Source of the DNA: Bacillota bacterium
GTDB lineage: Bacteria > Bacillota > Sulfobacillia > RBS10-35 > JAJYVN01
Reading direction: 5' to 3'
NCBI GenBank assembly: GCA_021806565.1
Contig: JAJZXK010000001.1
Span: 32,314-96,313 of the forward strand
Length of the DNA stretch: 64,000 nt
The stretch's first letter is position 1; every line of letters starts with the position of its first letter. This document shows positions 15,846 to 34,541 of the stretch, piece after piece. A model generated the notes under the pieces. That model saw only the letters and a list, made by a program, of their open reading frames with translations. It searched no databases and was not told the origin of the DNA. The translations under genes and the position numbers were made by a program.

Positions 15846-17684
<1,839 letters not shown>

Positions 17685-18906: not shown

Positions 18907-19206
18907 ATGGCGTCCCTGCTCGTGCTGGACGCACGCGATAACGTGGCGGTCGCTCTGGAGTCGCTGGAAGCGGGTAGCCGCGCACGTGTCGCCGGCGGCG
19001 CGCTGGAGTTGCGGGATGCCGTGCCCATGGGCCACAAGGTGGCGCTGCGTGCGATCGCCGCCGGCGAGCAGGTCCTGAAGTATGGGGCGGTCATCGGGCG
19101 CGCCACAGTGGACATCGCTCAGGGTGCGCACGTCCACGTCCACAACCTCGAAGGCCTGCGCGGCCGGGGCGACCGACGCCCCGGGGCGTCGGGGCAGGAT
19201 GGCTGA
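18907..19206 (+). CDS. SAF-domain small subunit of a UxaA-like dehydratase
   Basis: ASLLVLDARDNVAVALESLEAG...VPMGHKVALRAIAAGEQVLKYG matches the SAF/UxaA N-terminal domain. Confidence 0.7.
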   Translation: MASLLVLDARDNVAVALESLEAGSRARVAGGALELRDAVPMGHKVALRAIAAGEQVLKYGAVIGRATVDIAQGAHVHVHNLEGLRGRGDRRPGASGQDG

Positions 19207-19876: not shown

Positions 19877-20009
19877 GCCGGGTCGTTGGGGCCGTGACGG
19901 CCCGCGTCCATGCCGGGGGCCCCGGGCGCCGGGCGTCGCTTGTGGTCGGGTGCGCGCCGTCGAGCCGGGTGCGCCAGCCACGGTATCCCTGAGCCGGGGG
20001 GCCTTGGTT

Positions 20010-21596
20010 TCAGTCGGCGGCAGCACCCGGCTTCGGCTCGCCGAGCGGTTCCGCCCGCAGACGGGCCGCCAGCGCCGTACGGCAGAGGGCGCGATCATCC
20101 AGGGGCACGCTGCCGCCAGGACCGGCTTGGCGCGTCTCGTGGCCGCGTCCGGCGACGAGCACCAGGTCGCCGGGGCGCGCGGCGAAGATGGCCTCCGCCA
20201 CGGCCGCGCGGCGGTCCAGCAGAGTGTGCCATCGCGCGCCCGCGCGGTGCAGTCCGACGGACACCGCGGCTGCGATGGCCGCGGGGTCTTCCGCATACGG
20301 GTCGTCGGTAGTCAGATAGACGTGATCGGCGTACCGCCCGGCGAGTTCCCCCATGCGGCTCCGCTTTTCACTGTCCCGGTCGCCGCCCTTGCAGCCGAAG
20401 ACCAGGCGTAGCTGGTTGCGGCACGCCCGGCGCGCCGTCTGCAGGGCGGCGGCGAGTCCGGCCGGGTTGTGCGCAAAGTCCACGACGACTTCGAAGTCCT
20501 GGCCCAGCATCACAGGTTCGAAGCGGCCGGGTATCGGGGGCAGGTGCTCCAGGGCGTGGGCGGCCATTTCCGGATGCACCCCGTTTCCGAGCGCGGCGGC
20601 GACGGCCGCCAGGGCGTTCTGGGCGTTGTGCGCTCCGGGGAGGCCCAGATGGAACTCCAGCCGGCCGAAGTCGCCCTCGGCCCGTATCACTGCGCCGCTG
20701 TTCACCGCCCGATAGTGGCCGCGCACGTCGGCCGGGGACTGGATGCCGAAGGTGACGAGGCGGCGGTGGCCGCGGGATTCCCGCGCCACCAGCCGGCCGG
20801 CGGCCGTGTCGGTGCAGACCACGGCCAGGGCGGGGTGCGTCTTGGATCCGCCGCGCGGTCGGAAGAGGCGGCGCTTGGCGGCGAAATAGGCCATGGCGTT
20901 GCCGTGGTAGTCGAGATGGTCGCGTGAGAGATTGGTGAAGACGGCGGTGTCCACCTCCAATCCCTCCAGCCGCTTCTGGGCCAGGGCGTGGGAACTGGCC
21001 TCCAGGGCGACGCCGTGCAGGCCGGCGGTGGCGATTTCCGCCAGCATGCCGTGGAGGGCCGGGGCATCCGGTGTCGTCAACGGCGAGGTGACCTCCCGCT
21101 GGCCCAGGCGGTAACAGACGGTGCCGATCAGTCCGACCGGCCGCTGGGCCACCGCAAAGATGGCCTGGAGCATGAAGGTGGTCGTGGTCTTGCCGTTGGT
21201 GCCGGTCACCGCCAGCACGAGCAGGCGCCGGTCGGGATACCCATGCAGCGTCCGGCTCAGCATGGCAAGGGCGGAGCGCACATCCGGCACCTCCACCTGG
21301 GGGACTCCGGCGAGTTGCGGTAGCGGGTGCGCCACGAGCAGGGCGGCGGCGCCGCGCGCGACGGCGGCTTCGGCCCAGGCGTGCCCGTCCTGACTGGTAC
21401 CGGGGACGCACGCGAACAGGGTCCCTGGCCGGACAAGGTCTGTGTGGCAGGCCAGACCCTGGATCGCGAGCGGTTGGATCGGACCGTGAATTCGGTACTG
21501 GGGCAACTGCGCCACGAGGTGGGCGAGCGGGATGCCGCTGGTTTCACGTTGCGGCGCGGCGACGGCTGCGGGAAGCGGGGCGAGCGGCGGTGTCAC
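20010..21596 (-). CDS. murE: Mur ligase, MurE-like (UDP-MurNAc-tripeptide synthetase paralog) with DDPY in place of DNPR
   Basis: MurE N-terminal domain plus GTNGKTTT P-loop. The diamino-acid selectivity motif reads TTDDPYAEDP. It lies outside any dcw cluster. Confidence 0.8.
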   Translation of the reverse strand: MTPPLAPLPAAVAAPQRETSGIPLAHLVAQLPQYRIHGPIQPLAIQGLACHTDLVRPGTLFACVPGTSQDGHAWAEAAVARGAAALLVAHPLPQLAGVPQVEVPDVRSALAMLSRTLHGYPDRRLLVLAVTGTNGKTTTTFMLQAIFAVAQRPVGLIGTVCYRLGQREVTSPLTTPDAPALHGMLAEIATAGLHGVALEASSHALAQKRLEGLEVDTAVFTNLSRDHLDYHGNAMAYFAAKRRLFRPRGGSKTHPALAVVCTDTAAGRLVARESRGHRRLVTFGIQSPADVRGHYRAVNSGAVIRAEGDFGRLEFHLGLPGAHNAQNALAAVAAALGNGVHPEMAAHALEHLPPIPGRFEPVMLGQDFEVVVDFAHNPAGLAAALQTARRACRNQLRLVFGCKGGDRDSEKRSRMGELAGRYADHVYLTTDDPYAEDPAAIAAAVSVGLHRAGARWHTLLDRRAAVAEAIFAARPGDLVLVAGRGHETRQAGPGGSVPLDDRALCRTALAARLRAEPLGEPKPGAAAD

Positions 21597-21719
21597 GCGG
21601 GATCAGCCCCTTTCACGCGGCGGCGGCGCCGTCGCGGCGGTGTCTGCTGGTCGGCGGCGGCATGCTATGTGGCGGTGCGTTTGTCCGGAGCCTGGACGAA
21701 TGCCGAAAGGGGTGGCGCG

Positions 21720-22328
21720 ATGCGGGTGGCGGTGACCGGTGGCACGGGCCGCTTTGGTACGGCCCTGGTGGAAAGGCTGGCGGCGTCTGGAGCGGGCGGC
21801 CAACGCGGCCGCCGTGGCCGCCAGCCAAGTGGACAACGCCGTCCCGGTGGAGGGGGCCCGGAATGAGGCCGCAGTTGCCGCCGCGGACATCATCGTGTTG
21901 GCGGTGCTGGCCCGCGGGCATGCGGAGACGCTGCGGGGGGATCGCCGCCTGCACCCGGGGCAAGGTGGTGGTGGATACCTGTGTCTGCCACCATCCTGAC
22001 GGCGGTGGGCATTGGTTGGCGCCGCCGGAGGCTCGGCGGCGGCCAGGGCAAGGCGGTCTCCCGCGGCCTGCGCTTCCCTCGCCCCTTCCTGGTGGGCGAC
22101 ACGCTGTTGGTGTCCGACGGGGACGGCGCGCGCGATGGGGCGTGGCAGATCCTGTCCGCCCTGGGCCTGGGTTGGGTGGACGCCGCCGGCCCGGAAGCGG
22201 CGGCCGCCCTCGAGCAGGTGGCAGCGCTTGTCGCGAGGCTGGAAGACCGACGGGGCGTTCCGCCTCCGGCCCTGCGCCTGCACTGGGCCGGGCGCGGCCC
22301 CTTGCCCGCGGCACCGATGGGCGGCTAG
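21720..22328 (+). pseudogene. NADPH-dependent F420 reductase-like Rossmann oxidoreductase, disrupted by three +1 frameshifts/deletion
   Basis: Homology jumps frames three times. Frame 0 gives MRVAVTGGTGRFGTALVERLAASG. Frame 1 gives VDNAVPVEGARNEAAVAAADIIVLAV. Frame 2 gives GKVVVDTCV. Frame 0 again gives PFLVGDTLLVSDGDGARDGAWQILSALGLGWVDAG. Confidence 0.45.
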
Positions 22329-22452
22329 GGTGGTTTCCGGCGCACCCCGCCGGCCGAATCGTGGGGCAGGTCATGTTTGGCGCGCGGCGCGGGCGCATCA
22401 CCCCTGGGACGCTCCCCCGGCGCAGGCTGCGTAGAGAGGGTTAGGACCTGTC

Positions 22453-23541
22453 GTGGGCAAACGTCGCCGTCGTTTCCGACCCGGACCGATCCGCATCGCC
22501 TTCATGGCCACCGTCGGACTGGCGCTGTGTGCAGGCGTCTGGACGGCCTGCGCGCGGCGGGCGTCGCCTCCAGGCGCGCGTCCGCCCGCCACGGCGCCTT
22601 CGGCGGCCGGCCACACACCCACGTCGTCGTCCTCCTCACCCGCGGTGCGGCCGGTGACCTCGGTGCGGGTGCGGTCGCTGGGCGCGTTGCTGCCCACGCC
22701 CTTGATGGGCCTTGCGGCTGCGACCGTCGGCCGGCACATCTATCTCGTCGGTGGCGCGGGACCGCAGGGCTACAGCGCGGCGATCTACGCGTTTACCCCG
22801 CCGTCGGCCAGCGCGAAGGCCCGCATCACCAAGGTGGCGTCCCTCCCGGCGGGCCGCCATGACGGCGCGGCGGTTTCCAGCGGCGGCGCGCTACTGTTTT
22901 GCGGGGGGGGCCGCAACCGCGGCCACCGGGCGGTGTATCGCTACCGGCCAGGGGGAACGGTGCACCTGTTGGGCCGGATGTCCCAGCCCCTGTCCGACCT
23001 GGCCGGGGTGACGGCGGGGGGGACGGCCTATTGCCTGGGTGGATACAACGGCACGTCGCAGTACAGCGCGGCCGTCTACGCCGTCGGTGGCGCCACGGCC
23101 GCCCGCCAGGTGGCCACCCTGCCGCGGCCGGTGCGGTACGCCGCCGCGGCTGCGGCGGGGCACGGTATCCTGGTCGTGGGCGGCCGCACCAACGGGTGGC
23201 GGGCCGTCGCCGACATCCAGTGGGTGCCGTTGCGGGGCGGCGGCAAGCCGGTCGTCGTCGGAAGCCTGCCGCGGCCGCTTTATAAGGCCATGGGCGCGAC
23301 GCTCCCGGGGGCGGCACTGGTCATCGGCGGCTGCGGGCCGCACAGCCATGTCCATCGCCATGTGTATGCGTTGTCGGCGTCCGGGGCGGAGACCGGCGTG
23401 GGGCGCCTACCGACAGGATGGTGTTACGGCGCCGCCGCGGTGCTGGGGGGGCGCGTCTACGTCTTCGGCGGCCACGGGCCCAGTGGTCGACCGTCCGATC
23501 GGGTCTGGGAACTCATCCCAGGCCAAGGGGCCGGCGGTTGA
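22453..23541 (+). CDS. Kelch-repeat beta-propeller (lipo)protein
   Basis: Signal/lipobox-like N-terminus, then repeated Y..GG motifs typical of Kelch blades. Confidence 0.6.
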   Translation: MGKRRRRFRPGPIRIAFMATVGLALCAGVWTACARRASPPGARPPATAPSAAGHTPTSSSSSPAVRPVTSVRVRSLGALLPTPLMGLAAATVGRHIYLVGGAGPQGYSAAIYAFTPPSASAKARITKVASLPAGRHDGAAVSSGGALLFCGGGRNRGHRAVYRYRPGGTVHLLGRMSQPLSDLAGVTAGGTAYCLGGYNGTSQYSAAVYAVGGATAARQVATLPRPVRYAAAAAAGHGILVVGGRTNGWRAVADIQWVPLRGGGKPVVVGSLPRPLYKAMGATLPGAALVIGGCGPHSHVHRHVYALSASGAETGVGRLPTGWCYGAAAVLGGRVYVFGGHGPSGRPSDRVWELIPGQGAGG

Positions 23542-23637
23542 TCCCCCGCAGGCCGGCGGTTCGGCTGGAGATCGGGAGCGGGACGCGTTGCGGGCGGGGT
23601 TGCGCGGTGGTACCGTGAATCCAGGGGGAGTGGCACT

Positions 23638-25257
23638 TTGGCCGGTGCGCGCATCCAGGTCTACGACACGACGCTGCGGGACGGGGCGCAGCAGGTCGGT
23701 ATCTCCCTTTCACTGAAGGACAAAATTCAGTTACTTCAGGGCCTTGACGCCTTTGGCGTCGACTACGTCGAAGGCGGTTGGCCGGGCAGCAACCCCAAGG
23801 ACCTGGAGTTCTTCCAACAGGCGACGGCGTTGCCGCTCCGCTCCCGGTTGGCGGCCTTCGGCGCCACCCGCCGCGCGGGCGTCTCGGTGGAGGCCGACCC
23901 CAGCGTGCAGGCACTGCTGGCCAGTGGCACTCGGACCGTGACCATTTTCGGCAAGAGTTGGCTTTTGCACGTGCGTGAGGCACTCGGGACGACGGCTGAG
24001 GAGAACCTGGCGATGGTGCGCGACACCGTGGCCTTTCTCAAGCAGCACGGCCGCGAGGTCCTTTATGACGCTGAACACTTCTTTGATGGCGCCGCGGATG
24101 CGGACGGCGGAGCCTATGCCCTGGCGACCCTGCGGGCGGCGGCGGAGGCGGGCGCCGACACCCTGGTGCTTTGCGACACCAACGGCGGGAGTCTGCCCGA
24201 GCATGTCGCGGCATGGACCCGGCGCGTGCGCGACGAGTTCGGCCTGCCGGTGGGTATTCACACCCACGACGACGCTGGCCTGGCGGTGGCCAACGCAATG
24301 GCGGCCGTGGCCAGCGGCGCCGGGCAGGTGCAGGGAACGATCAACGGCTATGGGGAGCGGTGCGGCAACGTCAATCTGGCAACCCTGCTTCCCAACCTGG
24401 TGCTCAAGTGTGGCTATGACTGCACGGCGGCGTCATCGCTCGGAGAGTTGACCGCCCTGTCGCGGTTGGTCAGTGAGGCGTGCAACCTGCCGCCGGTGCC
24501 CGGTGCCCCGTATGTGGGGCCGAACGCTTTCGCCCACAAGGGTGGTGTGCACGTCAGCGCCGTCAATCGCAACCCCGCCACCTATGAGCATGTACCACCG
24601 GACGCGGTGGGCAACGCGCGGGAGGTGGTGGTCTCCGAACTGTCCGGCGCCAGCAACCTCGCATACAAGGCGCGTGAACTCGGGTGGGACTGGCTGACGC
24701 CTGAGGGGCGGCGGCTCCTCTTGGAGCGGGTCAAAGAACTGGAGTACGCGGGATATCAGTTCGAGGGGGCCGACGCCAGCTTCGAGTTGCTGGCGCGGCG
24801 CGTTCTCCATACCCAGCGGCCGTTTGTCGAACCGGTCGGCTATACGATCTCGGTCGCCCGGCGCAACGGGGCCGAGCCGGACGCCGAGGCGACGGTGCGA
24901 GTCCGCGTCGGCGGGCGCTTGCTGCACACCGTGGCCGACGGCGATGGGCCGGTGAACGCGATCGACCGCGCCCTGCGCAAGGCGCTGGAGGATCCCTACC
25001 CCGAGGTGCGCGACATGCGTCTGGCGGATTACAAGGTTCGAGTGATCGACGGCCGCGAGGGGACGGCGTCGCGCGTCCGGGTGCTCATCGCGACGGAGGC
25101 GCCCGACGGCTACTGGACCACGGTGGGGGTTTCAGACAATATCCTCGACGCCAGTTGGCTGGCGTTGTTGGACAGCCTGGAGTATGGGGTGACCAAGCGG
25201 CGGTTGCCCAAGTCCGCCGAGGCGCCTGCCGGCCCCGCGAGCGGGGCGGCAGGCTGA
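23638..25257 (+). CDS. cimA: (R)-citramalate synthase / 2-isopropylmalate synthase family
   Basis: IQVYDTTLRDGAQQVGISLS... HMGL-like domain plus a C-terminal LeuA-dimer domain, 539 aa. Confidence 0.85.
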   Translation: MAGARIQVYDTTLRDGAQQVGISLSLKDKIQLLQGLDAFGVDYVEGGWPGSNPKDLEFFQQATALPLRSRLAAFGATRRAGVSVEADPSVQALLASGTRTVTIFGKSWLLHVREALGTTAEENLAMVRDTVAFLKQHGREVLYDAEHFFDGAADADGGAYALATLRAAAEAGADTLVLCDTNGGSLPEHVAAWTRRVRDEFGLPVGIHTHDDAGLAVANAMAAVASGAGQVQGTINGYGERCGNVNLATLLPNLVLKCGYDCTAASSLGELTALSRLVSEACNLPPVPGAPYVGPNAFAHKGGVHVSAVNRNPATYEHVPPDAVGNAREVVVSELSGASNLAYKARELGWDWLTPEGRRLLLERVKELEYAGYQFEGADASFELLARRVLHTQRPFVEPVGYTISVARRNGAEPDAEATVRVRVGGRLLHTVADGDGPVNAIDRALRKALEDPYPEVRDMRLADYKVRVIDGREGTASRVRVLIATEAPDGYWTTVGVSDNILDASWLALLDSLEYGVTKRRLPKSAEAPAGPASGAAG

Positions 25258-25279
25258 GCGACGGTGCGGGCGTCTGGTC

Positions 25280-25486
25280 TCAGCGGCTCAGGCGTGCCGC
25301 CCATTTCCACGCATCGATCCAGACGATCACCATCACTAGGACGAAGGCCAGCACCCCGTCCCACGGACCGAGGGGTTTGACCAAGGTGGCGACGATCACG
25401 AAGGCGGCCGCCAGACCGAGCAGTTGCAGGGTGTCGCCGATGAAGAACTTCCAGAGATAGCGCCCGATCGCCGTAATGGTGTTCAT
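25280..25486 (-). CDS. small membrane protein (68 aa)
   Basis: Two hydrophobic helices. ATGA overlap with the upstream membrane-protein gene suggests translational coupling. Confidence 0.4.
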   Translation of the reverse strand: MNTITAIGRYLWKFFIGDTLQLLGLAAAFVIVATLVKPLGPWDGVLAFVLVMVIVWIDAWKWAARLSR

Positions 25487-26193
25487 GCCCGCTCACCCCC
25501 GGCCGAGGCGCGATTGGGCGCCGTGGACCGCAGCAGCGTCACTGCGAGCCAGGCCAGGACGAGGTTGCCGATCGCCAGCCAGATCACGGAGGCGTCCGCG
25601 CCCCACCAGTGGATCCCGAGTGCCTCACCGAGCCAGAGGGTGCCGAAGCTGGTCAGCATGACGCCGACCACGAACTTCAGCGCCACCTCGGGAACGCGGC
25701 CGAGCGGACCGCGGGCGATGGCCGCCGCGACCACGCAGAGCAAGGCGGCCGCTACCGCACCGACGATGGCCGAGCCCAGCGCCCCTCCGGTCACGCCCAG
25801 TGCCAGCACGATGAAGACGACCTCCGCGCCCTCCAGCAGGACCCCGTTGAACGCCATCAGGAATGCCGCGTGTGGTGATGCGTCCGCGTCGTCGTGGTGT
25901 CCGCCGCCGGGGCGCGGCCGGCCCAGGCGGACGGTGGCCTTAGAAAGCCACTTCACCCCGAACAGCAGGAGCAACCCCCCGATGATGGCGCGGAGCACCG
26001 GCAGCGGAACGGTGTGCAGTAGGCCGACGCCCAGCACCGCCACGGCCACGGCCAGGATGCCGGTCGCCGCGAGCGTCCCGTACAGCGCGGGCCCCCAGCT
26101 GGCCAGCGTCGCGGCGGCGATGACGATCACGGCCGCCTCCACAAATTCCACCAGTGCGCCGCCAAAGGCGGTGAACAGGTATCCCCAATGCAA
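25483..26193 (-). CDS. membrane protein with an internal duplicated (E-rich helix) repeat
   Basis: TTG start at 26193 preceded by GAGGGAGGG. Only the C-terminal 237 codons of the long ORF look coding. Confidence 0.5.
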   Translation of the reverse strand: MHWGYLFTAFGGALVEFVEAAVIVIAAATLASWGPALYGTLAATGILAVAVAVLGVGLLHTVPLPVLRAIIGGLLLLFGVKWLSKATVRLGRPRPGGGHHDDADASPHAAFLMAFNGVLLEGAEVVFIVLALGVTGGALGSAIVGAVAAALLCVVAAAIARGPLGRVPEVALKFVVGVMLTSFGTLWLGEALGIHWWGADASVIWLAIGNLVLAWLAVTLLRSTAPNRASAGGERA

Positions 26194-26340
26194 ACGCGTA
26201 CCCTCCCTCGCATCCCACGGTGACTTGCGGCCCGGCGCTACATCGCGCCCAAGCCATGCGGACGGATCCCGCCACCCCACCCTTTCGCACAAGCCTTCTC
26301 CACTACCATTCCTTATGCGGCCGGGGCCCCGTATCCTTCC

Positions 26341-26396
26341 GCCGCAAGCCGCAAGCCGCAAGCCGCAAGCCGCAAGCCGCAAGCCGCAAGCCGCAC
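26341..26396. repeat. heptanucleotide tandem repeat (GCCGCAA)x8
   Basis: Eight perfect 7-nt units seen directly. The repeat is intergenic, between a minus-strand membrane gene and a plus-strand GNAT gene. Confidence 0.9.
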
Positions 26397-26601
26397 GTGC
26401 GCAGGGGCGCATTTCCGCGGGGAGTCGCGATCCAGAGTCCGGGCATGGCGGGTCCGGTGGAGACGTTTTCGGGCCGATCGCCGACGTGGCGCCATTGGGG
26501 CGCATGGACTCAGGTCGTGGCGTCGTGTGGGCCGCAGGTGGGCCGGGCCCCGGGGCGAATCGGCGCCCGGGGGCGGTGTGGCGGTGGCCAATCGGATACC
26601 G

Positions 26602-27057
26602 ATGTCCGAGGTGCGGCTGGCGGCGGCGGCCGTCGGCGCCGATCCGGAGTTTGGCACCCGTCTGGCCGCGTACTGGCGCGACCTGGGGGTCGAGCCGCCG
26701 GCCGCATGGCATCTTCAATACATGCGCCGCCTGCTGGTGGAAAACGGCCGCTCCCGGCACGCCTTTTGGGGTGAGTGCGCGGGCGCCCGCGTCGGTTTGG
26801 CCATCCTTCGTCTGGAGGAGGACTGGATGTGGCCGGCCCGGCGTGTGGGCCACATCGCGGAGTTCACCGTCTTTCAGCCCTGGCGGCGCCAGGGCCTTGG
26901 CAGGGCGATGGCCTGGGCCTGCTGCGATTGGCTGCGGGCGCAGGGCTGCGCTTCCATCGAACTGGACGTGCTGCCAGGCAACGTGCGGGCGCACGCCTTT
27001 TGGACGGCGGTCGGCGGCGAGGCGATCTGTGTCCGCATGCGGCTGCCCCTGCGCTGA
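26602..27057 (+). CDS. GNAT family N-acetyltransferase
   Basis: HIAEFTVFQPWRRQGLGRAMAW is a GNAT acetyl-CoA-binding motif. Confidence 0.7.
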   Translation: MSEVRLAAAAVGADPEFGTRLAAYWRDLGVEPPAAWHLQYMRRLLVENGRSRHAFWGECAGARVGLAILRLEEDWMWPARRVGHIAEFTVFQPWRRQGLGRAMAWACCDWLRAQGCASIELDVLPGNVRAHAFWTAVGGEAICVRMRLPLR

Positions 27058-27204
27058 CTCCAGCGGCCGGCCCCCTGTCCTTGGCCGTCCGGGCTGGATT
27101 CGACCGCGGCCGGATGGACGGCGTGCGCTTGTACCCCGGTTGGACCCGGGCGTAGACTGCGCCATGGTCCATGATGCCCGTGTGGCGATACGGGGGGGCG
27201 GCCG

Positions 27205-28050
27205 GTGGCTGCGGCGGGGTTTGCCTGGGGGAGTCGCACGTTCGTGATGGGGATCGTGAACGCGACCCCCGATTCGTTTTCGGGGGACGGCTGTGGCGCG
27301 GACGTGGAGGGCGCCATCGCGCGGGGACTGGCCCACCTGGACGCCGGCGCCGACATCTTGGACGTGGGTGGCGAGTCCACGCGGCCGGGTGCCCAGCCGG
27401 TGGCGGCGGAAGAAGAATGCGAGCGCGTCGTGCCCGTGATCCGCGGCTTGAGGGCCCGCACGCAGGCACCGCTTTCGGTCGACACCTTCAAGGCGGAAGT
27501 GGCGCAGGCCGCCCTGGAGGCCGGTGCCGATATCGTCAACGACGTCTGGGGGTTGCGGCGGGACCGCGCCATCGCGTCCGCCGCGGCCCGCTTCGGTGCC
27601 ACACTGGTCATCGTGCACAACCGGCCCGCCGAGGCGACCGTCGATCCGCTCGGCGGGATGTATCCGCGGGCGGTGTACGGGGACGTGGTGGCCGAGGTCG
27701 CGGCGGAACTCCAGGAGGCGGCGGGCTGGGCATTGGCCGCGGGGGTACCGGCCGAGCGCATCTGGCTTGACCCCGGGTTGGGTTTCGGCAAGACGCCGGC
27801 CCAGAGCCTGGAACTGCTGCGGCGCCTAGGCGGGTTGCGTCTGGGGTATCCACTCTTGGTGGGTCCGTCCCGCAAGTCGTTCATCGGCCGGACTCTCGGA
27901 CTGCCGGTGGGCGAGCGGGACGAGGGCACCGCGGCGGCGGTGGCGCTTTCGGTCGCCTTCGGCGCGGATGTGCTGCGAGTCCACGACGTTCGCACCATGG
28001 TGCGCGTGGCGCGGATGGCCGACGCGGTGTGCCGCGGCGGTCCGGCGTGA
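27205..28050 (+). CDS. folP: dihydropteroate synthase
   Basis: MGIVNATPDSFSGDG...ADILDVGGESTRPGA DHPS signature. Confidence 0.9.
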   Translation: MAAAGFAWGSRTFVMGIVNATPDSFSGDGCGADVEGAIARGLAHLDAGADILDVGGESTRPGAQPVAAEEECERVVPVIRGLRARTQAPLSVDTFKAEVAQAALEAGADIVNDVWGLRRDRAIASAAARFGATLVIVHNRPAEATVDPLGGMYPRAVYGDVVAEVAAELQEAAGWALAAGVPAERIWLDPGLGFGKTPAQSLELLRRLGGLRLGYPLLVGPSRKSFIGRTLGLPVGERDEGTAAAVALSVAFGADVLRVHDVRTMVRVARMADAVCRGGPA

Positions 28051-29318
28051 ATCCCCTCTCGGAGGCCGACGTCTATCGCGGCTATGAGGCATTGCTTGGG
28101 TTGCCGGACAAGGAGCGGGGCGGCGCCGATCTGCTCGGCTGGGATCCCCGCCGCATGCGGCGCTGGCTGGGACGGCTCGGCGACCCCCAGTTGCAACTGC
28201 GCTGCACCCTGGTCGCCGGCAGCAAGGGCAAGGGATCAACCGCCGCCATGCTGGAGGCGATGCTGCGCGCGGCCGGCCGCCGCACGGGGCTGTATGCGCA
28301 GCCGCACCTGCACCGCTACGCGGAGCGGATCCGCGTCGACGGCCGGCCGCTCACCCCGCCGGCGAGCCGCGCCGCGTTGGACCACGTCCTGGGCTTGGCG
28401 CCCGGTCCGGTGACCGCCTTCGAGGCGGCAACGGCTGCGGCCCTATGGGTGTTCGCGCGGTCGCGGGTGCAGGACGCGGTGCTGGAGGTCGGTTTCGGCG
28501 GCAGGCTGGACGCGGTCGCCGAGGCGGACCCGGCCGTGGTGCTGATGGCATCCCTGGAGTCTGAGCACGTGGACCTGCTCGGCCCGACGCTTGCAGATGT
28601 CGCGGCCCACGACCTGGCGCTGTGCCGCTACGGCCGCGTCTGCTGGTCCGTGCCGCAACCGCCTCCCGTCGACCGCTGGTGGGCCGACCGACTGCGGGCC
28701 CAGGCGGTGGACGGCGGGGTCGTTTCCCCACCCGAGGTGCTCGTGGGCGGGCGGGTGCGGTTGCGGACGCCGGCCGGTGCGGTCGACGCAGGCCTCCGTC
28801 TGCACGGTGCGTTCCAGCGGGTCAATGCGGCACTGGCCGCGGCGGGGGCGGCCAGCCTCGGCGTGGGACCCGGGGCGATGGCCGGCGGTCTGGAGGCCGT
28901 AAGCTGGCCGGGCCGTTTCGAATGCGTGTCGGACCGGCCGCTGGTGGTCGTGGACGGGGCGCACACCCCCGCCTCGGCCCAGGCCCTGGCGGCGGCGGTC
29001 CACTCCCTGGTCGGACCGCGGGGACGCGTCGCCCTCGTGGCGGGAATGCTGAGCGACAAAGACGCCGTCGGTTTTGCCTCCGCACTGCGGGTGCTGTGCG
29101 CCCGGACCGTCACGGTGGCACCGCGCCACCCCAGGGCACTGGATGCGGATGTGCTGGCCCGGGCCTTCGGGTCCGGGGCCGAACCCGCGCCCGACCTGGA
29201 AGCGGCCATGGCCCTGGCGCGGGCATGGGCCGGCGCGGACGGACTGGTGCTGGTCGCGGGCAGCCTGCACCTGGCGGCCGAGGCGCGGCTTGTGTGCGGT
29301 CAAAGTGCGTGCGTGTAG
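28029..29318 (+). CDS. folC: dihydrofolate synthase / folylpolyglutamate synthase
   Basis: LVAGSKGKGST Mur-ligase P-loop. Overlaps the folP 3' end. Confidence 0.8.
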   Translation: MPRRSGVNPLSEADVYRGYEALLGLPDKERGGADLLGWDPRRMRRWLGRLGDPQLQLRCTLVAGSKGKGSTAAMLEAMLRAAGRRTGLYAQPHLHRYAERIRVDGRPLTPPASRAALDHVLGLAPGPVTAFEAATAAALWVFARSRVQDAVLEVGFGGRLDAVAEADPAVVLMASLESEHVDLLGPTLADVAAHDLALCRYGRVCWSVPQPPPVDRWWADRLRAQAVDGGVVSPPEVLVGGRVRLRTPAGAVDAGLRLHGAFQRVNAALAAAGAASLGVGPGAMAGGLEAVSWPGRFECVSDRPLVVVDGAHTPASAQALAAAVHSLVGPRGRVALVAGMLSDKDAVGFASALRVLCARTVTVAPRHPRALDADVLARAFGSGAEPAPDLEAAMALARAWAGADGLVLVAGSLHLAAEARLVCGQSACV

Positions 29319-29670
29319 TCTGAGCTCCGGCGCACCCGGGATGGTGCCGGCGGGCCCCACGGATACGTCGTTACCGCTGCAGGAGGGCCGACCCCAGGGA
29401 CGTGAAGAGGGAGGGGCCTGCCGGTTCCCTTGCCTCGGTATGGCCGCGCAATACCTTGCCAATGAACCACAAGCGGTTCAGCTCGTCCGGGCAATGGATC
29501 CTGCGGAGCGGCTTTTCGCCCGCTTCGTCCACCCTCCGTCCGCAGCGATCTCTTGCAAGGCGCCACCACGGGCCACAGACCGCGGGTACGGTTTCGTGCC
29601 GTTGCAGGGATGCGGCGCCGCGGCGCCAAGGCCGCTGCGCCGCGCTTCGCCGGGACGCCAACTCGGCCGT

Positions 29671-30780
29671 TTACGGGCGCGGCGATTCCTGCAGGGTCGA
29701 GGCCCGCAGGCCTCCACGGGCGCGCCGCCAGCGCACGGCGGTACACAGCAGCCAAGCGGCTGGGCCGGCGGTCTGCAGGGTGCGGGTTGCTGGTCCGACC
29801 AAGTCCTGGGCGGCCACCTTCGGATCGGACAGGTAGAGCGCGGGCAAACCGCGGACGACGGTACGGTGGAAACCGGCCAGGGGCAGGTGCGCCACCGCCG
29901 CGTCGGCTTGGCGGCCGAAAACGACCAGCCGCGCGGCGGCCGCGTTCGCGTCCGGATACCAGAACGTGAAGTTCATGTCTCCGCCCCGCCGGTCCTCTTC
30001 GCGGTCGATCCAATAGTCCAGCAGGATGTGCAGCCCGGTCACCCACGGGAAGTAGGCGCGGCGCAGCTTCAGCGCGGCCGCCTCGTCCAGCGCGCCGGCG
30101 GCGGCGGCGGCGAAGAGAGCGAAGATACCGAGTGTGGAGCCGGTGGCGGCGGCGATCTCCCACCAGTCGAGGCCGGGGGCCTCCGCGGCAAGACCGGCCG
30201 CCCAGTCGCGGACGGCCTGTTCCCGTTGTCTGGGGCGGTGTTTGTGCTCCTGGAGGTCGGAGTACCAGGCCGCCAGGCGCGCGGCCTGGGTGCAAAAGGC
30301 CCCGCGCGCCCGTGCCGGCAGGCGCAAGACCTCCGCCTGACAGGTCGCCACCAGGGCGTCCAGGTAGCCACCGTCATCGCGGCGCGGATAGTCGTCGTAG
30401 AAGGAGGAACCGGGTGCCGTCGTCGACGGCGCCTGCACCGCGGCGCGCATGGCGTCGTGCAACCGGCGGAAGGCGGGCGCCCCGGCGGCGGGGGCGCGGT
30501 CGCAGAGGTTGTCCAGGTAGTCGCTGATGGTCTGTAGAGCGATGATATAGCGCAGGGCGGCCGGGGCGGCGCCCGCCGCGGCCAGGGCATAGATGGCGCC
30601 GCCCTCGCAGTGGAAGCGCTTATCGTGCAGACTGGCCAGGGCGTGGCGGCGCAACTCCGGATCCGGGATGGCGGCGGCCGTGGCCTGCCACGGAGCCATC
30701 GCCTGCGCCACGGCGCGGGACAGACCGGGCAGGGCGAGCACGACGCCGAGCGGGCTGGTCGGGGTACGCTGCACGTGCAT
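29671..30780 (-). CDS. ytpB: tetraprenyl-beta-curcumene synthase family (YtpB/DUF2600), sporulene pathway
   Basis: IIALQTISDYLDNLCDR is the DUF2600 signature. Start taken at the internal Met (MHVQRTP). Confidence 0.7.
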   Translation of the reverse strand: MHVQRTPTSPLGVVLALPGLSRAVAQAMAPWQATAAAIPDPELRRHALASLHDKRFHCEGGAIYALAAAGAAPAALRYIIALQTISDYLDNLCDRAPAAGAPAFRRLHDAMRAAVQAPSTTAPGSSFYDDYPRRDDGGYLDALVATCQAEVLRLPARARGAFCTQAARLAAWYSDLQEHKHRPRQREQAVRDWAAGLAAEAPGLDWWEIAAATGSTLGIFALFAAAAAGALDEAAALKLRRAYFPWVTGLHILLDYWIDREEDRRGGDMNFTFWYPDANAAAARLVVFGRQADAAVAHLPLAGFHRTVVRGLPALYLSDPKVAAQDLVGPATRTLQTAGPAAWLLCTAVRWRRARGGLRASTLQESPRP

Positions 30781-30893
30781 GCGGTCAGCATACCCGCTGT
30801 CCGCCGCGGGCCGGAAGGCCTGGACCCGGCAGGGGCTGGTCGCCTCGGGGACGAAGTGCCACGCGGCCGGGAGCCGGAGGGAGAGGGTGCCAG

Positions 30894-31790
30894 GTGCCGG
30901 GCGTCGTCCGGCGGGTCGGAGTGCTCGTCCATGCCGACAAACCTGGCGCGCTTCCACTGACGGCGCGGTTGGTGGCGTGGTTGCAGGCGCGCGCCGTGGA
31001 GGTTGCGGTGCTGCCGGAGGTGGGCGCGGCGCTGGGCGGCGGCGTGTCGGTTTGCCTGTTGCCCGAAATGGCCTCGCAGTGCGGTTTGGTGATGGTGCTG
31101 GGCGGGGATGGGACGCTGCTGGGTGCGGCCCGGCGGACGGCGCCGTACGCTCCGGCCCTCTTGGGTGTCAATCTGGGGCGCCTCGGGTTCTTGACCGAAT
31201 TGGAGCAGGCGGAACTGTTTGCCGAGCTGCCGGGCATCCTGTCGGGCCGCTTCGAGATCGACGAACGTGCCATGCTGGCCGCGGTGGTGCGCGGCGGTGC
31301 GTCGGAGGCGCAGACCTACCTGGCGCTCAACGACGTGGTCGTTGCCAAAGGACCGTTCTCGCGCCTGATGCGCTTGTGCGTGCGCTCCGGGGGGCGCGAG
31401 GTGGCCGCCTACCCCGGCGACGGGGTCATCCTTTCCACCCCCACCGGGTCGACGGCATACGCCCTTTCTGCGGGTGGACCCATCCTGCATCCGCAGGTGC
31501 ACGGAATCTTGATCACGCCCATCTGTCCGCACAGTTTTTATGCGCGACCGACGGTGGTCGGCGCTGGCGAGCGGTTGCGGGTCGAGGTCTCGTCCGTCGC
31601 CGGTCCGCACGGCCCGGTGGATGTGGCGCTGACGGTCGACGCCCAGGAAGGCCGATCCCTGAGGCCAGGCGAGTGGGTCGATGTCTCCGCTGCGCCACAG
31701 CGTGCCCGCCTGGTCCGCCGGCCCGGCTGGAACTTCTACGAGGTGTTGCGCGGCAAGCTTGCCGATGGCGGTGTTCGTGGAGGCGGCTGA
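30894..31790 (+). CDS. nadK: NAD kinase
   Basis: VMVLGGDGTLLGAAR and NDVVV...GDGVILSTPTGSTAYALSAGGP. Confidence 0.9.
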   Translation: MPGVVRRVGVLVHADKPGALPLTARLVAWLQARAVEVAVLPEVGAALGGGVSVCLLPEMASQCGLVMVLGGDGTLLGAARRTAPYAPALLGVNLGRLGFLTELEQAELFAELPGILSGRFEIDERAMLAAVVRGGASEAQTYLALNDVVVAKGPFSRLMRLCVRSGGREVAAYPGDGVILSTPTGSTAYALSAGGPILHPQVHGILITPICPHSFYARPTVVGAGERLRVEVSSVAGPHGPVDVALTVDAQEGRSLRPGEWVDVSAAPQRARLVRRPGWNFYEVLRGKLADGGVRGGG

Positions 31791-31858
31791 GGCGCCGCCG
31801 CGGGTCGAGCCGGCTGTACCGGCGCCCTGCCGCCGGGTGAGGGGAGGTCCGACCCAGG

Positions 31859-32344
31859 GTGCGTACCAAGGAGCAGCGGCAGGAGCGCATCCTGCAGTTG
31901 GTGCGGACGCGTGCGGTGGACACGCAGGAAGACCTGGCCGCCCTGTTGCACGCCGAGGGGTTTACCGTCACCCAGGCGACCGTCAGCCGTGACATCCGCG
32001 AACTGAGGTTGGCCAAGGTCCCGACGGGCGCGGGCCGCTCCCGGTACGCCGTGGCCAACGGGGCTCCCGGCGAACGCCTGCGCCAACTGGTCCGCGATTG
32101 CGTCACCGGGGTGGATGCCAGTGAGAACATCGTGGTGCTCAACACGCTTCCAGGGATGGCGCAGGCGGTGGCCGAGGTGCTGGACGGCGTGGGTGCCCCA
32201 GAGGTGATCGGCACGATCGCCGGCGAGCGGGTGGTCTTTGCCGTGATCAAGCCGCGGGCCGCGGTGCCGGCGTTTCTGGCACGGCTGCGCGGGCTGCGCG
32301 GGCAGGAAGCGGGCGGCACCGGGGCGATGCCGTCGTCACCCTGA
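31859..32344 (+). CDS. argR: arginine repressor ArgR/AhrC
   Basis: QERILQLVRTRAVDTQEDLAALLHAEGFTVTQATVSRDIREL plus a C-terminal oligomerisation domain. Confidence 0.9.
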   Translation: MRTKEQRQERILQLVRTRAVDTQEDLAALLHAEGFTVTQATVSRDIRELRLAKVPTGAGRSRYAVANGAPGERLRQLVRDCVTGVDASENIVVLNTLPGMAQAVAEVLDGVGAPEVIGTIAGERVVFAVIKPRAAVPAFLARLRGLRGQEAGGTGAMPSSP

Positions 32345-32804
32345 ACCGCGAACCTTGCCGCGACCCCGATGCGCCGAGACCGCAGACCCGAAGCCGCCGC
32401 AGGGGGCGAAAGGTGCGCCGGGCGCGCCGGGTGGACACAGGGAAGCGGCCGGCGGTGGGGAAACCGGCGGGTGCGTGCGGTGGTCGGGCCACCCCCCGGC
32501 GGTCGGTTGCTGCGGGTGCGGTGGTGCCGGTGCGCATGGGCCGTTCGCGGGATCAGCGAGCCCGTGGGGTGCCCTGACGGGGCCGTCGAGGGTCGGTGTG
32601 TGCGGCCGGGCCGGTTGCGGCGGAGCGTGGCGCCCTGCGGGCGCAACCCGGTCCGGGTGGAGGTTCCGGCGTGCGCGGCGGTGTCGCCGCGCGGCCCGAG
32701 TCCGCCGGTTGCCCAGGCCCCGCGAGGGGCAAATCGTGGGACGAAAGGGGCAAGGCCTGGTCGGGCTGGCGGTGTGGAACGGCGGGCGACCGGCCTATCC
32801 ACAT

Positions 32805-34541
32805 ATGCGGACCAGGGCGGGCAGCTTGTTGCGCAGGCTCGAGGTGGAGCAACTGGCCATCCTGCAAGAGGCGGCGGTGGCGTTCGGTCCCGGGCTTAAC
32901 GTCCTGACGGGTGAGACCGGCGCTGGAAAGTCGCTATTGCTGGACGCGTTGTTGTTGGCCCTGGGCGGCCGGGCGGACGCCGGGCTGGTGCGCGACGGCG
33001 CGCGCTCATTGCGCGTGACCGCCGAGTTCGCGCTACCCACGTCGGATCCGCTCTGGCAGGTTCTTGCCGCGGAGGGCCTGGAGCCGGATGACGGAGTCTT
33101 GGTCCTGACGCGCGAACTGGGTCGGGATGGGCGTTCGACCTGCCGGGTGAACGGCCGCCTGGTGACCGCCGGGACCCTGCGTACCGCTGGGGCGCATCTG
33201 GTGTCGGTGTTGGGGCAGGGTGGCCAGGGGCGGTTGGCCCAGCCGGCGGCGCAACTCGCCTTCGTCGACGCCTGTGGCGGCGCGGACTTGGCGAGGGCGT
33301 CCGCCGAGGTGGCCGGCGTCTATGCCCTTTGGCGCGAGGCGGTCGACGCCCGCCGGGAATTGGGTGGGGGATCGCAGGATCGCGCCCGCCGGAGGGACGA
33401 CCTGGCGGCGGCGGTGCGGGAGATCGACGCCCTGGGCCTGCGGGTGGACGAAGAGGCCGAGTTGGAGGTACGGCGCCGGCGGATGGCGGCGGCCGGCCGG
33501 TTGTTGGAGTCGGTAGGCCGGACGCTGGAAGCGCTGTGCGACGGCGACGGCTCCGCACGCGACCGGTTGGGCCACGCGGCGGCGGAGATCGGGTCGGTGT
33601 CCCGCCTGGACGATGCGCTGTCCGAGGCCGTCGGCTTGCTGGATCAGGCGTGCATCGCGGTGGACGAGGCGGCGCGCCTGCTGCACACGTACGCCGAGGG
33701 CCTGAACTTCGACCCCGGGGCCGTAGCGGAGTTGGAGGAGCGCTGGTCCGCCATCCAGCGATGCAAGCGCCGGTATGGGGGCGACGCGGCGGCGGTGCTC
33801 GCCTACCGCGATGAGGCCGAGGCGCAGGTGCGGGCCCTGGAGGCGGCGGAGGCTGAAGCGGCTGGGCTGGAGGCCGAGATCGAGGCGCGCGGCCGCGAAC
33901 TGGGATCGGCTGCGGCCAGGCTGGGCGTCCTGCGGCGCCAGGCGGCCGAATCCCTGGAGGCCGCGTTGGCGGAGCAGTTGCAGGATTTGGGCATGGCGGG
34001 GGCGCGATTGAGGATCGGCCTGGAGGTCGCCGAAGACCCCGCCGGGGTGATGGTGGGGGAGACGCGCCTGCGCTGCGGGCCGGCGGGATGCGAACGGACG
34101 ATGTGGCTCTGGGCGGCCAACCCCGGCGAGGGTGGCCAGGAACTGGGCCGGGCCGCTTCGGGTGGGGAGCTTTCGCGGCTGTATCTGGCGCTGCACGCCC
34201 TGCGGGCCGAGACCGGGGACGTGCCCACGCTGGTGTTTGACGAGGTGGACGCCGGGGTGGGCGGTCGCGCCGCCGCGGCGGTCGCGGCGCGGTTGGCTGC
34301 CCTGGGGGCGCACCGCCAGGTGCTCTGCGTCACACACCTGGCGACGGTGGCGGCGGCGGCGGAGCGCCAGTTCGCGGTCGGCAAGCGTACGGTCCAAGGG
34401 CGGACCGCCGCTGAGATTGTGGAGTTGCAAGGTGCGGAGCGCGTCCGCGAGTTGGCGCGCATGTTGGACGGCAGTGCGTCCGCCGGCGCGATCGCCCACG
34501 CCCGGGAACTGCTGCAGCGGCGGTCGCGGCCGGCGGGTTGA
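32805..34541 (+). CDS. recN: DNA repair protein RecN
   Basis: LNVLTGETGAGKSLLLDALLLALGGRA Walker A and a C-terminal ABC signature. Start at the internal ATG 32805 gives a 578-aa product. Confidence 0.9.
   Translation: MRTRAGSLLRRLEVEQLAILQEAAVAFGPGLNVLTGETGAGKSLLLDALLLALGGRADAGLVRDGARSLRVTAEFALPTSDPLWQVLAAEGLEPDDGVLVLTRELGRDGRSTCRVNGRLVTAGTLRTAGAHLVSVLGQGGQGRLAQPAAQLAFVDACGGADLARASAEVAGVYALWREAVDARRELGGGSQDRARRRDDLAAAVREIDALGLRVDEEAELEVRRRRMAAAGRLLESVGRTLEALCDGDGSARDRLGHAAAEIGSVSRLDDALSEAVGLLDQACIAVDEAARLLHTYAEGLNFDPGAVAELEERWSAIQRCKRRYGGDAAAVLAYRDEAEAQVRALEAAEAEAAGLEAEIEARGRELGSAAARLGVLRRQAAESLEAALAEQLQDLGMAGARLRIGLEVAEDPAGVMVGETRLRCGPAGCERTMWLWAANPGEGGQELGRAASGGELSRLYLALHALRAETGDVPTLVFDEVDAGVGGRAAAAVAARLAALGAHRQVLCVTHLATVAAAAERQFAVGKRTVQGRTAAEIVELQGAERVRELARMLDGSASAGAIAHARELLQRRSRPAG

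What the first reader, a model, noticed from the sequence alone, without database searches (positions are those of the whole stretch)
26300..26420. Eight-copy GCCGCAA heptanucleotide tandem repeat in a divergent promoter region
A perfect (GCCGCAA)x8 array (56 nt) sits between a minus-strand membrane-protein gene pair (TTG start at 26193) and a plus-strand GNAT gene. Because 7 is not a multiple of 3 the repeat cannot be coding. Short-unit tandem repeats in promoters are classic slipped-strand phase-variation switches that alter -35/-10 spacing or transcription-factor binding. Nothing else in the window is repetitive at this scale.
Basis: seen in the sequence. Interest (0 to 1): 0.5.

Follow-up and report, generated by a model that had tools for sequence, protein, structure and literature searches.

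The report
Variable seven-base repeat between two genes
A perfect run of the 7-base unit GCCGCAA lies in non-coding DNA between two divergently oriented gene groups of an uncultured high-GC bacterium, and its copy number (8 versus 5) is the only length difference between two almost identical genomes, so it is a real, fast-changing microsatellite of a known kind whose role as a gene switch is unproven.

Summary
The array is real: window 26341..26395, seven GCCGCAA units plus GCCGCA (55 nt, 7.9 copies, 100% perfect). It is the strongest tandem repeat in the window. It lies in a 408-nt spacer with no coding signal, between an OFeT_1-type permease operon (minus strand) and GNAT-folP-folC (plus strand).

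An independent metagenome contig matches the window over 21.6 kb except for 3 substitutions and one indel, which is exactly 3 repeat units (5 versus 8 copies). Three k=31 contigs from two further samples break inside the array. Relatives at 85-88% protein identity keep the gene layout but have no array. They also lack an adjacent ~130-nt segment. So the repeat is young and lineage-specific, not a conserved RNA or operator.

There is no Rfam match and no stable fold. The array is too long to be a -35/-10 spacer. It abuts a 35-nt block conserved across relatives that looks like the permease operon's core promoter or operator.

GCCGCAA arrays occur in at least 120 stretches of DNA from many phyla and are almost always intergenic. 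This fits the published over-representation of heptanucleotide repeats in prokaryotes.

Verdict: a hypermutable slippage microsatellite and a new member of a known kind. Any regulatory effect is plausible but untested.

The parts
26341..26395 (.). Heptanucleotide tandem array: (GCCGCAA)x7 plus GCCGCA, 55 nt, perfect. It reads TGCGGC(TTGCGGC)x7 on the minus strand.
   Evidence: The allele with 4 units plus GCCGCA (34 nt) is in ENA contig L001/L004.
26306..26340 (-). Conserved 35-nt block directly abutting the array on the permease side. Read on the minus strand it is GGAAGG, then 17 nt, then CATAAG, then GAAT. It has two conserved boxes and a less conserved spacer, so it is a candidate core promoter or operator of the permease operon.
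   Evidence: It is about 89-92% identical in relatives with 85-88% protein identity, while the rest of the spacer is poorly conserved. The motif does not recur significantly in the window. The function is inferred.
26396..26527 (.). Unique segment of about 130 nt adjacent to the array. It is absent from the relatives that can be aligned. Together with the array it forms a lineage-specific block of about 185 nt between CACCTGCGGCCC and GGCGGAAGGATACGG.
   Evidence: Pairwise alignments. There is no other copy in the window or in the fetched loci. No coding periodicity.
25483..26193 (-). OFeT_1 / COG4280 (GDT1-like) membrane permease, 236 aa, TTG start. The array lies 148-202 nt upstream of its start codon.
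   Evidence: Pfam PF16955, E=2.6e-12. The same 236-aa product is called on other assemblies. Homologues.
25280..25486 (-). 68-aa small membrane protein. It overlaps the permease stop by 4 nt, so it is the second gene of that operon.
   Evidence: The pairing is conserved in relatives.
26584..27057 (+). GNAT acetyltransferase. The start is GTG at 26584 (157 aa, as called in relatives) or ATG at 26602 (151 aa, as called in the same species). The array lies 189-261 nt upstream.
   Evidence: Pfam PF00583, E=2e-14..
27247..28050 (+). folP (dihydropteroate synthase), downstream of GNAT.
   Evidence: TIGR01496, E=9.8e-86. Pfam PF00809.
28047..29318 (+). folC-like Mur-ligase-family gene, overlapping the end of folP.
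   Evidence: PF02875 and PF08245. Gene calls.
26611..26626 (+). G-rich stretch in GNAT codons 4-8 (after the ATG at 26602), 92-93% complementary to the array. It is a possible pairing partner if the array is transcribed in the GNAT leader.
   Evidence: Inverted repeats I3-I10. Duplex energy -52.6 kcal/mol, in the top 0.64% of plus-strand windows. However, it encodes a conserved peptide also found in relatives without the array. This is a lead only.

Best explanation
This is a young, lineage-specific, hypermutable heptanucleotide microsatellite (a 'long simple sequence repeat') in non-coding DNA.

Shown: it is a perfect array. It is absent from the nearest relatives. Its copy number differs by three units between two otherwise nearly identical genomes.

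Inferred mechanism: slipped-strand mispairing during replication adds or removes whole 7-nt units. Loops of 7 nt are poorly recognised by MutS-type mismatch repair, and heptamers are the unit length most prone to expansion in prokaryotes.

Inferred consequence: the array begins exactly at the upstream edge of a conserved promoter/operator-like block of the permease operon, and it lies about 190-260 nt upstream of GNAT-folP-folC. Each unit therefore moves everything on the GNAT side 7 bp (about 240 degrees of helix) relative to that block, or lengthens the GNAT leader if the array is transcribed. At most it would act as a graded 'rheostat' rather than an ON/OFF switch.

I consider it more likely than not that it is a nearly neutral by-product of heptamer-biased slippage and not a selected contingency switch.
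For: The array is perfect and the top-scoring repeat in the window. It is non-coding by GC3 periodicity, and no gene is called there.

Window versus ENA contig ERZ27237474 k141_414420: over 21,641 aligned bases there are 3 substitutions and a single indel, which is exactly 21 nt (3 units) inside the array.

Logan k=31 contigs from SRR13222495 and SRR13236502 stop exactly 30 nt into the array, from both sides. A simulation shows that a homogeneous 34-nt array has no repeated 31-mer, whereas arrays of 41 nt or more do. Those samples therefore hold at least 6 copies or a mixture of alleles.

Relatives at 88% and 85% permease identity keep the divergent gene layout but have a single CCTGCGGCC and no array. 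Relatives at 72% and 67% have spacers that cannot be aligned, and no array.

GCCGCAA arrays of 3-17 perfect units occur in at least 120 stretches of DNA from many phyla. Of 80 that could be classified, 78 are intergenic or at gene edges. In their flanks, period-7 arrays with other units far outnumber every other period. This matches the published over-representation of heptanucleotide SSRs and the polymerase-slippage explanation proposed for it (Mrazek et al. 2007, as summarised in PMC4679880, and PMC4692102).
Against: Only two complete alleles were recovered. Five further long contigs with identical flanking proteins were collapsed by the look-up tool and could not be read.

Both alleles come from short-read metagenome assemblies, so an assembly error cannot be formally excluded. 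It is unlikely, because both arrays (34 and 55 nt) are shorter than one read and shorter than the final k of 141.

The difference of exactly 3 units preserves both helical phase and reading frame. That could hint at selection, either regulatory or coding, rather than neutrality.

The position right beside the only strongly conserved non-coding block, and the complementarity to the GNAT start region (top 0.64%), are compatible with a function.
Confidence: 0.62

Rival explanations
1. It is a genuine contingency locus or expression rheostat. Copy-number changes tune transcription of the permease operon, because the array sits at the UP-element/activator position immediately upstream of the promoter-like block. 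Alternatively they tune expression of GNAT-folP-folC. One version of the second option resembles hmw: the array is transcribed in the GNAT leader and pairs with the G-rich start of the coding region, so that longer arrays sequester the initiation region.
For: Copy-number polymorphism between near-clonal genomes. The array abuts a 35-nt block conserved across relatives, with a two-box, 17-nt-spacer layout. The two alleles differ by 21 bp, which is two helical turns, so they stay in phase. The array is 92-93% complementary to 26611..26626. The duplex energy of -52.6 kcal/mol is the best within 400 nt downstream and in the top 0.64% of the window. The predicted fold of the leader pairs the array with that region. 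There is precedent: the H. influenzae hmw (ATCTTTC)n array is transcribed, forms a hairpin with a G-rich arm, and sets expression level (PMC12721329).
Against: No promoter or transcription start could be located. The leader fold is not significantly better than shuffles (z = -1.5, with 5 of 100 shuffles as good). The G-rich partner encodes a conserved peptide (VRLxAAxVG) that is already present in relatives lacking the array. The array is absent from all relatives, so any function is very recent. The target genes are not typical contingency genes. Heptamer arrays arise abundantly in intergenic DNA without known function. Only one allele pair was observed.
Confidence: 0.25
2. The array is real but its copy number is fixed. 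On this view the 5-versus-8 difference and the contig breaks are artefacts of short-read metagenome assembly.
For: All the sequences are metagenome assemblies. Tandem repeats are a known source of assembly error (title of PMC6868369, listed; the paper was not read). k=31 graphs necessarily break at arrays of 38 nt or more.
Against: Arrays of 34 and 55 nt with unique flanks fit inside a single 100-150-nt read and inside one 141-mer, so a k141 assembler has no reason to collapse them. The indel is a clean multiple of the unit with identical flanks. Perfect 8-copy heptamer tracts are within the range where slippage is well documented.
Confidence: 0.08
3. The array is coding. It would encode a 7-residue peptide repeat (CGLRLAA) in a small minus-strand protein (47-aa ORF, 26303..26446), and only changes of three units would be tolerated.
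For: An ATG-initiated ORF reads through the array. The two alleles differ by exactly 3 units, which is in frame.
Against: There is no coding periodicity in either flank. No Shine-Dalgarno-like sequence precedes the ATG (read from the sequence). There is no Pfam match. The product was never called as a gene in the public assemblies. The start of the ORF lies in the lineage-specific insertion, so it has no orthologue. High-GC DNA produces long spurious ORFs here, including 607-aa and 711-aa ORFs across the same spot.
Confidence: 0.03
4. The array is part of a conserved structured RNA, or is a conserved array of binding sites for a regulator.
For: None beyond its location in a long leader-like spacer.
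Against: There is no Rfam match. The best overlapping hit scores 17.8 bits against a gathering score of 41.2, with E=5.5. Both strands of the array fold worse than shuffled sequence (z about +3). The array is absent from every relative examined. The unit does not recur as arrays elsewhere in the window.
Confidence: 0.02

Closest known systems
Long simple sequence repeats (LSSR) of prokaryotes, heptanucleotide class (Mrazek, Guo and Shah 2007, as summarised in PMC4679880 and PMC4692102)
   Same: A perfect head-to-tail array of a 7-nt unit, far longer than chance allows. It is intergenic, it varies between close relatives, and it is sporadically distributed. The same unit forms arrays in Burkholderiales, Pseudomonas, Actinomycetota and other groups.
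   Different: The host is an uncultured high-GC Bacillota lineage not covered by those surveys. Only one such array is visible in the 64 kb available, so it is unknown whether the genome is SSR-rich.
Haemophilus influenzae hmw1A/hmw2A (ATCTTTC)n upstream repeat (PMC12721329; PMC2651432)
   Same: A 7-nt unit upstream of an operon, with copy number varying between clonal relatives. The repeat is complementary to a downstream G-rich segment, as in the hmw 5'-UTR hairpin.
   Different: No evidence that the array is transcribed or affects expression. The predicted pairing is not statistically convincing, and its partner is constrained by coding. [quoted passage not shown] The target is a permease or folate operon, not an adhesin. 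The organism is free-living and uncultured, not a host-adapted pathogen.
Xanthomonas GGGAATC and Nostoc GGGGA(T/C)T intergenic heptamer repeats (PMC4692102); cyanobacterial tandem heptanucleotides (Calothrix, cited there)
   Same: Intergenic heptamer arrays with extensive length variation between close relatives and no clear link to gene function.
   Different: Those units are G-tract-rich and form G-quadruplexes, and they occur at very many loci per genome. GCCGCAA has no G-tracts, neither strand forms a stable structure, and only one locus is seen here.
TAACTGA direct repeats of marine Beggiatoaceae, Cyanobacteria and Bacteroidetes (PMC4679880)
   Same: A heptamer unit in tandem, located in intergenic DNA upstream of genes.
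   Different: TAACTGA sets lie within a few nucleotides of start codons at more than 100 loci per genome, which suggests a binding factor. This array is 148 nt and about 190-207 nt from the two start codons, and it is unique in the window.
Promoter-spacer SSR switches (repeats between the -35 and -10 elements that change their spacing, as reviewed in PMC12721329)
   Same: An intergenic SSR between divergent genes.
   Different: Those tracts lie inside a 16-18-bp spacer. This array is 34-55 nt and cannot.

Membership tests
Prokaryotic long simple sequence repeat (heptanucleotide LSSR) | Head-to-tail copies of a 1-11-nt unit, longer than expected by chance | tested here: met
   7.9 perfect copies, TRF score 110, the top score in the window. 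Double-unit matches: 10 against 2.2 expected.
Prokaryotic long simple sequence repeat (heptanucleotide LSSR) | Non-coding location, as is typical for units whose length is not a multiple of 3 | tested here: met
   GC3 minus GC2 is 0.04 and 0.07 in the flanks, against at least 0.25 in genes. No gene is called there.
Prokaryotic long simple sequence repeat (heptanucleotide LSSR) | Copy number varies between closely related genomes by whole units | tested here: met
   8 versus 5 units, the sole indel in 21.6 kb that otherwise shows 3 substitutions. Only two complete alleles were seen.
Phase-variable contingency locus (promoter/5'-UTR SSR switch) | Hypermutable SSR with several alleles inside one population, changing reversibly | tested here: inconclusive
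   Alleles differ between samples. k=31 contig breaks in two samples imply at least 6 copies or mixed alleles. No read-level data are available.
Phase-variable contingency locus (promoter/5'-UTR SSR switch) | The SSR lies between the -35 and -10 elements so that unit number changes their spacing | tested here: not met
   The array is 34-55 nt long, whereas a promoter spacer is 16-18 nt.
Phase-variable contingency locus (promoter/5'-UTR SSR switch) | The SSR lies within or next to mapped promoter, operator or 5'-UTR elements of the regulated gene | tested here: inconclusive
   It abuts a conserved two-box block. However, no promoter can be recognised by consensus anywhere in 20 kb, and no transcription-start data exist.
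Phase-variable contingency locus (promoter/5'-UTR SSR switch) | Expression of the adjacent gene depends on unit number | not testable with these tools
   This needs reporter assays or transcriptomics by allele.
Phase-variable contingency locus (promoter/5'-UTR SSR switch) | The regulated gene is of a class under fluctuating selection (surface structures, restriction-modification, uptake receptors) | tested here: inconclusive
   The neighbours are an OFeT_1/GDT1-like permease, and GNAT, folP and folC. A transporter could qualify. Folate biosynthesis would be unusual.
hmw-type transcribed repeat hairpin (H. influenzae) | The repeats are transcribed and pair with a downstream G-rich arm in a stable long hairpin | tested here: inconclusive
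   Complementarity to 26611..26626, duplex in the top 0.64%. But the whole-leader fold has z = -1.5, and the partner is a conserved coding segment. Whether the array is transcribed is unknown.
Conserved structured RNA / riboswitch | Match to a curated RNA family, or conservation with a stable fold | tested here: not met
   No Rfam match near the gathering score. The array folds worse than shuffles. It is absent from relatives.
Multi-locus heptamer families (TAACTGA, STRR, GGGAATC) | The same unit forms arrays at many loci in one genome | tested here: inconclusive
   There is no second GCCGCAA array in the 64-kb window. The rest of the genome was not available, and the window's organism was not among the returned genome hits.
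Multi-locus heptamer families (TAACTGA, STRR, GGGAATC) | Arrays lie within a few nucleotides of start codons (TAACTGA type) | tested here: not met
   The array is 148 nt from the permease start and 189-207 nt from the GNAT start.
Repeat-containing small protein | Coding signal, a called gene, or a homologue | tested here: not met

The most novel reading that the evidence does not exclude
The array would be a recently evolved expression rheostat in a free-living, uncultured, spore-former-like Bacillota lineage. Unit number would set the level of a metal-type permease operon, or, through an hmw-like leader hairpin that pairs the repeats with the GNAT initiation region, the level of GNAT-folP-folC. 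That would extend SSR-based contingency regulation, so far studied mainly in host-adapted pathogens, to core metabolism in an environmental organism, and it would catch such a switch at birth.
Probability: 0.12. Interest if true: 0.55.

Novelty: new member of a known kind. Interest (0 to 1): 0.3.

Why it matters
As it stands, this is a clean example of a microsatellite caught soon after its birth. It is absent from sister species, perfect in sequence, and already polymorphic between near-clonal populations. It sits beside the only conserved non-coding block of a divergent regulatory region.

It is useful as a strain-typing marker for this uncultured lineage, and as a warning that short-k assemblies break at this point. 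If the regulatory rival were true, it would show that contingency-type tuning arises readily outside pathogens.

The broader pattern, in which heptamers dominate the tandem repeats around GCCGCAA arrays in many phyla, reproduces a published but still mechanistically unexplained bias.

Tried and rejected
- **Rfam.** An E-value scan of 25000..28000 found only chance-level hits.
- **Promoter and terminator consensus scans.** They found nothing near the array. They also found no promoter in 20 kb of this genome, so the method is uninformative here and its silence is not evidence.
- **Conserved-block motif.** A search for GGAAGG-N17-CATAAG elsewhere in the window gave no enrichment: 3 matches against 1.6 expected.
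- **JGI metagenome scans.** The left-flank and right-flank junctions each gave 0 hits.
- **Attempts to see the five long contigs hidden as 'similar places'.** Querying the window's DUF5317 allele found nothing on record. Querying GNAT, folP and the small protein gave the same collapse. The NAD kinase difference is synonymous, so that query was not tried.
- **Origin of the ~130-nt insertion.** A BLAST of that piece found no other copy, so there is no sign of a multi-copy mobile element.
- **Literature.** The top-ranked papers contained only the single heptamer, not the double unit GCCGCAAGCCGCAA or TTGCGGCTTGCGGC. None of the six sample, assembly or contig-prefix accessions searched appears in any paper.
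- **Organism naming.** The nearest named RecN relatives are at most 44% identical (Bacillota or Limnochordales MAGs), so only a phylum-level placement is possible. No source gives a name for the cluster members.
- **Coding readings of the array.** These were rejected.
- **tRNA scan.** None found in the window.

Full report
**Observation**

The sequence at 26341..26395 reads (GCCGCAA)x7 followed by GCCGCA. Tandem Repeats Finder gives period 7, 7.9 copies, 100% matches and score 110. That is the highest score of 71 rows for the 64-kb window; the next best is 79. The array is therefore 55 nt, not 56, with seven full units and one unit lacking its last base. A double unit with up to 2 mismatches matches 10 times against 2.2 expected, and 7 of those matches are inside the array.

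**Setting**

The minus-strand neighbour is a 236-aa OFeT_1 (PF16955) permease with its TTG start at 26193. It is followed by an overlapping 68-aa membrane protein. The plus-strand neighbours are a GNAT acetyltransferase, folP and a folC-like ligase. Gene calls on independent assemblies give the same boundaries and call nothing in the 408-nt spacer.

ORFs of 607 and 711 aa run across the spacer, but they are artefacts of 70% GC. The difference between third- and second-codon-position GC is 0.25-0.38 in the five real genes tested. It is 0.04 and 0.07 in the two flanks of the array.

The array lies 148-202 nt upstream of the permease start. It lies 189-261 nt upstream of the GNAT start, which is GTG 26584 or ATG 26602.

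**Is it variable?**

Exact-protein look-ups found the same species in other public assemblies. ENA contig ERZ27237474 k141_414420 aligns to the window over 21,641 columns with 3 substitutions and one gap. The gap is 21 nt inside the array, so that contig has 4 units plus GCCGCA where the window has 7 plus GCCGCA.

Both arrays are shorter than a read and shorter than the final k-mer of that assembler, so collapse is unlikely.

Three Logan contigs from SRR13222495 and SRR13236502 end or begin exactly 30 nt inside the array. A simulation shows that a homogeneous 34-nt array contains no repeated 31-mer, while arrays of 41 nt or more do. Those samples therefore carry at least about 6 copies or a mixture. 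That these contigs were built with k=31 is my own knowledge of the Logan resource.

Five further long contigs were collapsed by the look-up tool as 'similar places' and could not be read. Only two complete alleles are documented. They differ by three units, which preserves both reading frame and helical phase (21 bp is two turns). With a single comparison, this cannot be interpreted.

**Is it conserved?**

Homologues of the permease led to orthologous loci. Relatives at 88% (L129) and 85% (L130-L132, which include NCBI GCA_027335515.1) keep the divergent permease/GNAT layout, but their spacers are only about 140-210 nt and contain no array.

Pairwise alignment with cheap gap extension shows that the window lineage has one extra block of about 185 nt. 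It consists of about 130 nt of unique sequence (26396..26527) plus the array. It sits between CACCTGCGGCCC and GGCGGAAGGATACGG, and the relatives have a single TGCGGC-like heptad at the junction. The unique piece has no other copy in the window or in any fetched locus.

Relatives at 72% and 67% have spacers that cannot be aligned, and no array. The array is therefore young and lineage-specific.

Directly next to it on the permease side lies the only strongly conserved non-coding block of the spacer (26306..26340). On the minus strand this block reads GGAAGG, then 17 nt, then CATAAG. The two boxes are conserved and the spacer is variable. That layout is promoter-like, but the motif does not recur in the window, so its function is inferred.

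**Structure and known RNA families**

Rfam gives nothing near threshold. Each strand of the array folds worse than its shuffles (z about +3). The permease-side leader is unremarkable (z = -0.7).

The GNAT-side leader folds with z = -1.5, and its minimum-energy structure pairs the repeats with the start of the GNAT coding region. That segment (26611..26626) is 92-93% complementary to the array. Its duplex energy with the array (-52.6 kcal/mol) is the best within 400 nt downstream and in the top 0.64% of plus-strand windows.

However, the segment encodes a conserved peptide (VRLxAAxVG) that exists in relatives lacking the array. I treat this as a lead resembling the hmw leader hairpin of H. influenzae (PMC12721329), not as evidence.

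**Promoters**

The consensus scan finds no sigma-70-type promoter near the array. It also finds none in 20 kb holding about 20 genes, so it is uninformative in this organism.

A 34-55-nt tract cannot be a -35/-10 spacer. The array must lie upstream of a -35 element, inside a leader, or both, one for each direction.

**Wider context**

The hits span Pseudomonas, Burkholderiales, Actinomycetota, Acidobacteriota, Planctomycetota and others, with 3-17 perfect units. The window's organism was not among those returned.

Using the calibrated periodicity test, 80 arrays in high-GC genomes could be classified:
- 43 had no coding signal on either flank.
- 32 sat at a gene edge. From the printed orientations I count about 24 upstream and 8 downstream of the coding flank.
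- 3 lay between opposed genes.
- 2 may be inside genes.
- Separately, 18 further arrays lay at contig ends and were not classified.

In the 855 kb around these arrays, period-7 repeats with other units (22 arrays) far outnumber periods 2, 5, 6 and 8 (2 each).

This reproduces the published finding that heptanucleotides are the most abundant long SSR class in most prokaryotic genomes. Slippage favoured by the polymerase footprint has been proposed as the explanation (Mrazek et al. 2007, as summarised in PMC4679880, and PMC4692102). The top-ranked papers in the library search held only the single heptamer, not the double unit.

**Organism**

The synteny (a SpoIVB-type peptidase, DUF5317, RecN, ArgR and NAD kinase) and RecN relatives named Bacillota or Limnochordales at no more than 44% identity place it in an uncultured high-GC Bacillota lineage known only from metagenomes.

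**Conclusion**

The array is a slippage-type, copy-number-polymorphic SSR in a divergent regulatory region, and the structured-RNA alternative fails. Nothing shows that it controls expression, and the -35/-10 spacing mechanism is impossible.

The most likely account is a recently born, hypermutable heptanucleotide microsatellite. It is more likely than not to be nearly neutral, although its position beside a conserved promoter-like block makes a graded regulatory effect possible.

It is a new member of a known kind. Interest is modest (0.3).

Noticed in passing
L007-L126 (about 855 kb from 120 genome loci): Around GCCGCAA arrays in many phyla, period-7 tandem repeats dominate all other periods. 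With at least 4 copies and at least 90% match there are 96 period-7 arrays, against 2 each for periods 2, 5, 6 and 8. Twenty-two of the period-7 arrays have unrelated units (CGTTCCG, AACCCCA, CTTTTCC, AGTAGGA and others), and about 10 of those lie far from the GCCGCAA array. This matches the published heptamer bias, whose mechanism is still only hypothesised.
   Followed up: partly
L034 3752-3814; L125 1689-1743; L070 1210-1275: These are composite arrays, in which two different heptamer units lie directly adjacent or overlap. In L034, CTTTTCC arrays also occur in both orientations nearby. The origin is unexplained.
   Followed up: no
window 26306-26340 (minus strand): A 35-nt block, GGAAGG-N17-CATAAG-GAAT, is the only strongly conserved non-coding element of the permease/GNAT spacer across relatives with 85-88% protein identity. 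It has a two-box layout with a variable spacer. It is a candidate non-consensus promoter or operator.
   Followed up: partly
window 26396-26527: This unique segment of about 130 nt is present only in this lineage and lies next to the array. It has no second copy in the window or the fetched loci, no coding signal and no RNA-family match. Whether it is an insertion here or a deletion in the relatives is not resolved, because the more distant spacers cannot be aligned.
   Followed up: partly
window 17552-17799: All 58 differences between the window and Logan contig SRR13222495_10171 fall in one 250-nt patch at the thiC / next-gene boundary, at the end of that contig. The remaining roughly 8.6 kb are identical. 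This could be a recombination tract, a second strain, or a chimeric contig end.
   Followed up: no
L129 1683-4131; L130 618-2388: In the 88% relative, a resolvase plus OrfB_IS605 pair (an IS607-like element), a Uma2-family gene and small ORFs lie between GNAT and folP. In the 85% relative, an APH (phosphotransferase) and a Uma2 gene follow GNAT instead of folP. The region downstream of GNAT is a rearrangement hot spot in this clade.
   Followed up: no
L129 2328-2396: A 12-nt tandem repeat (TTCCTTGACCGT, up to 5.8 copies) lies inside the OrfB_IS605-type gene of the relative.
   Followed up: no
window 16001-36000: No sigma-70 consensus promoter (at least 9 of 12 positions) is found in 20 kb holding about 20 genes. 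Promoters in this lineage evidently diverge from TTGACA/TATAAT or are too GC-shifted for consensus scanning.
   Followed up: no
L133/L134 3181-4741: [quoted passage not shown] The divergent arrangement is therefore not universal in the wider clade.
   Followed up: no
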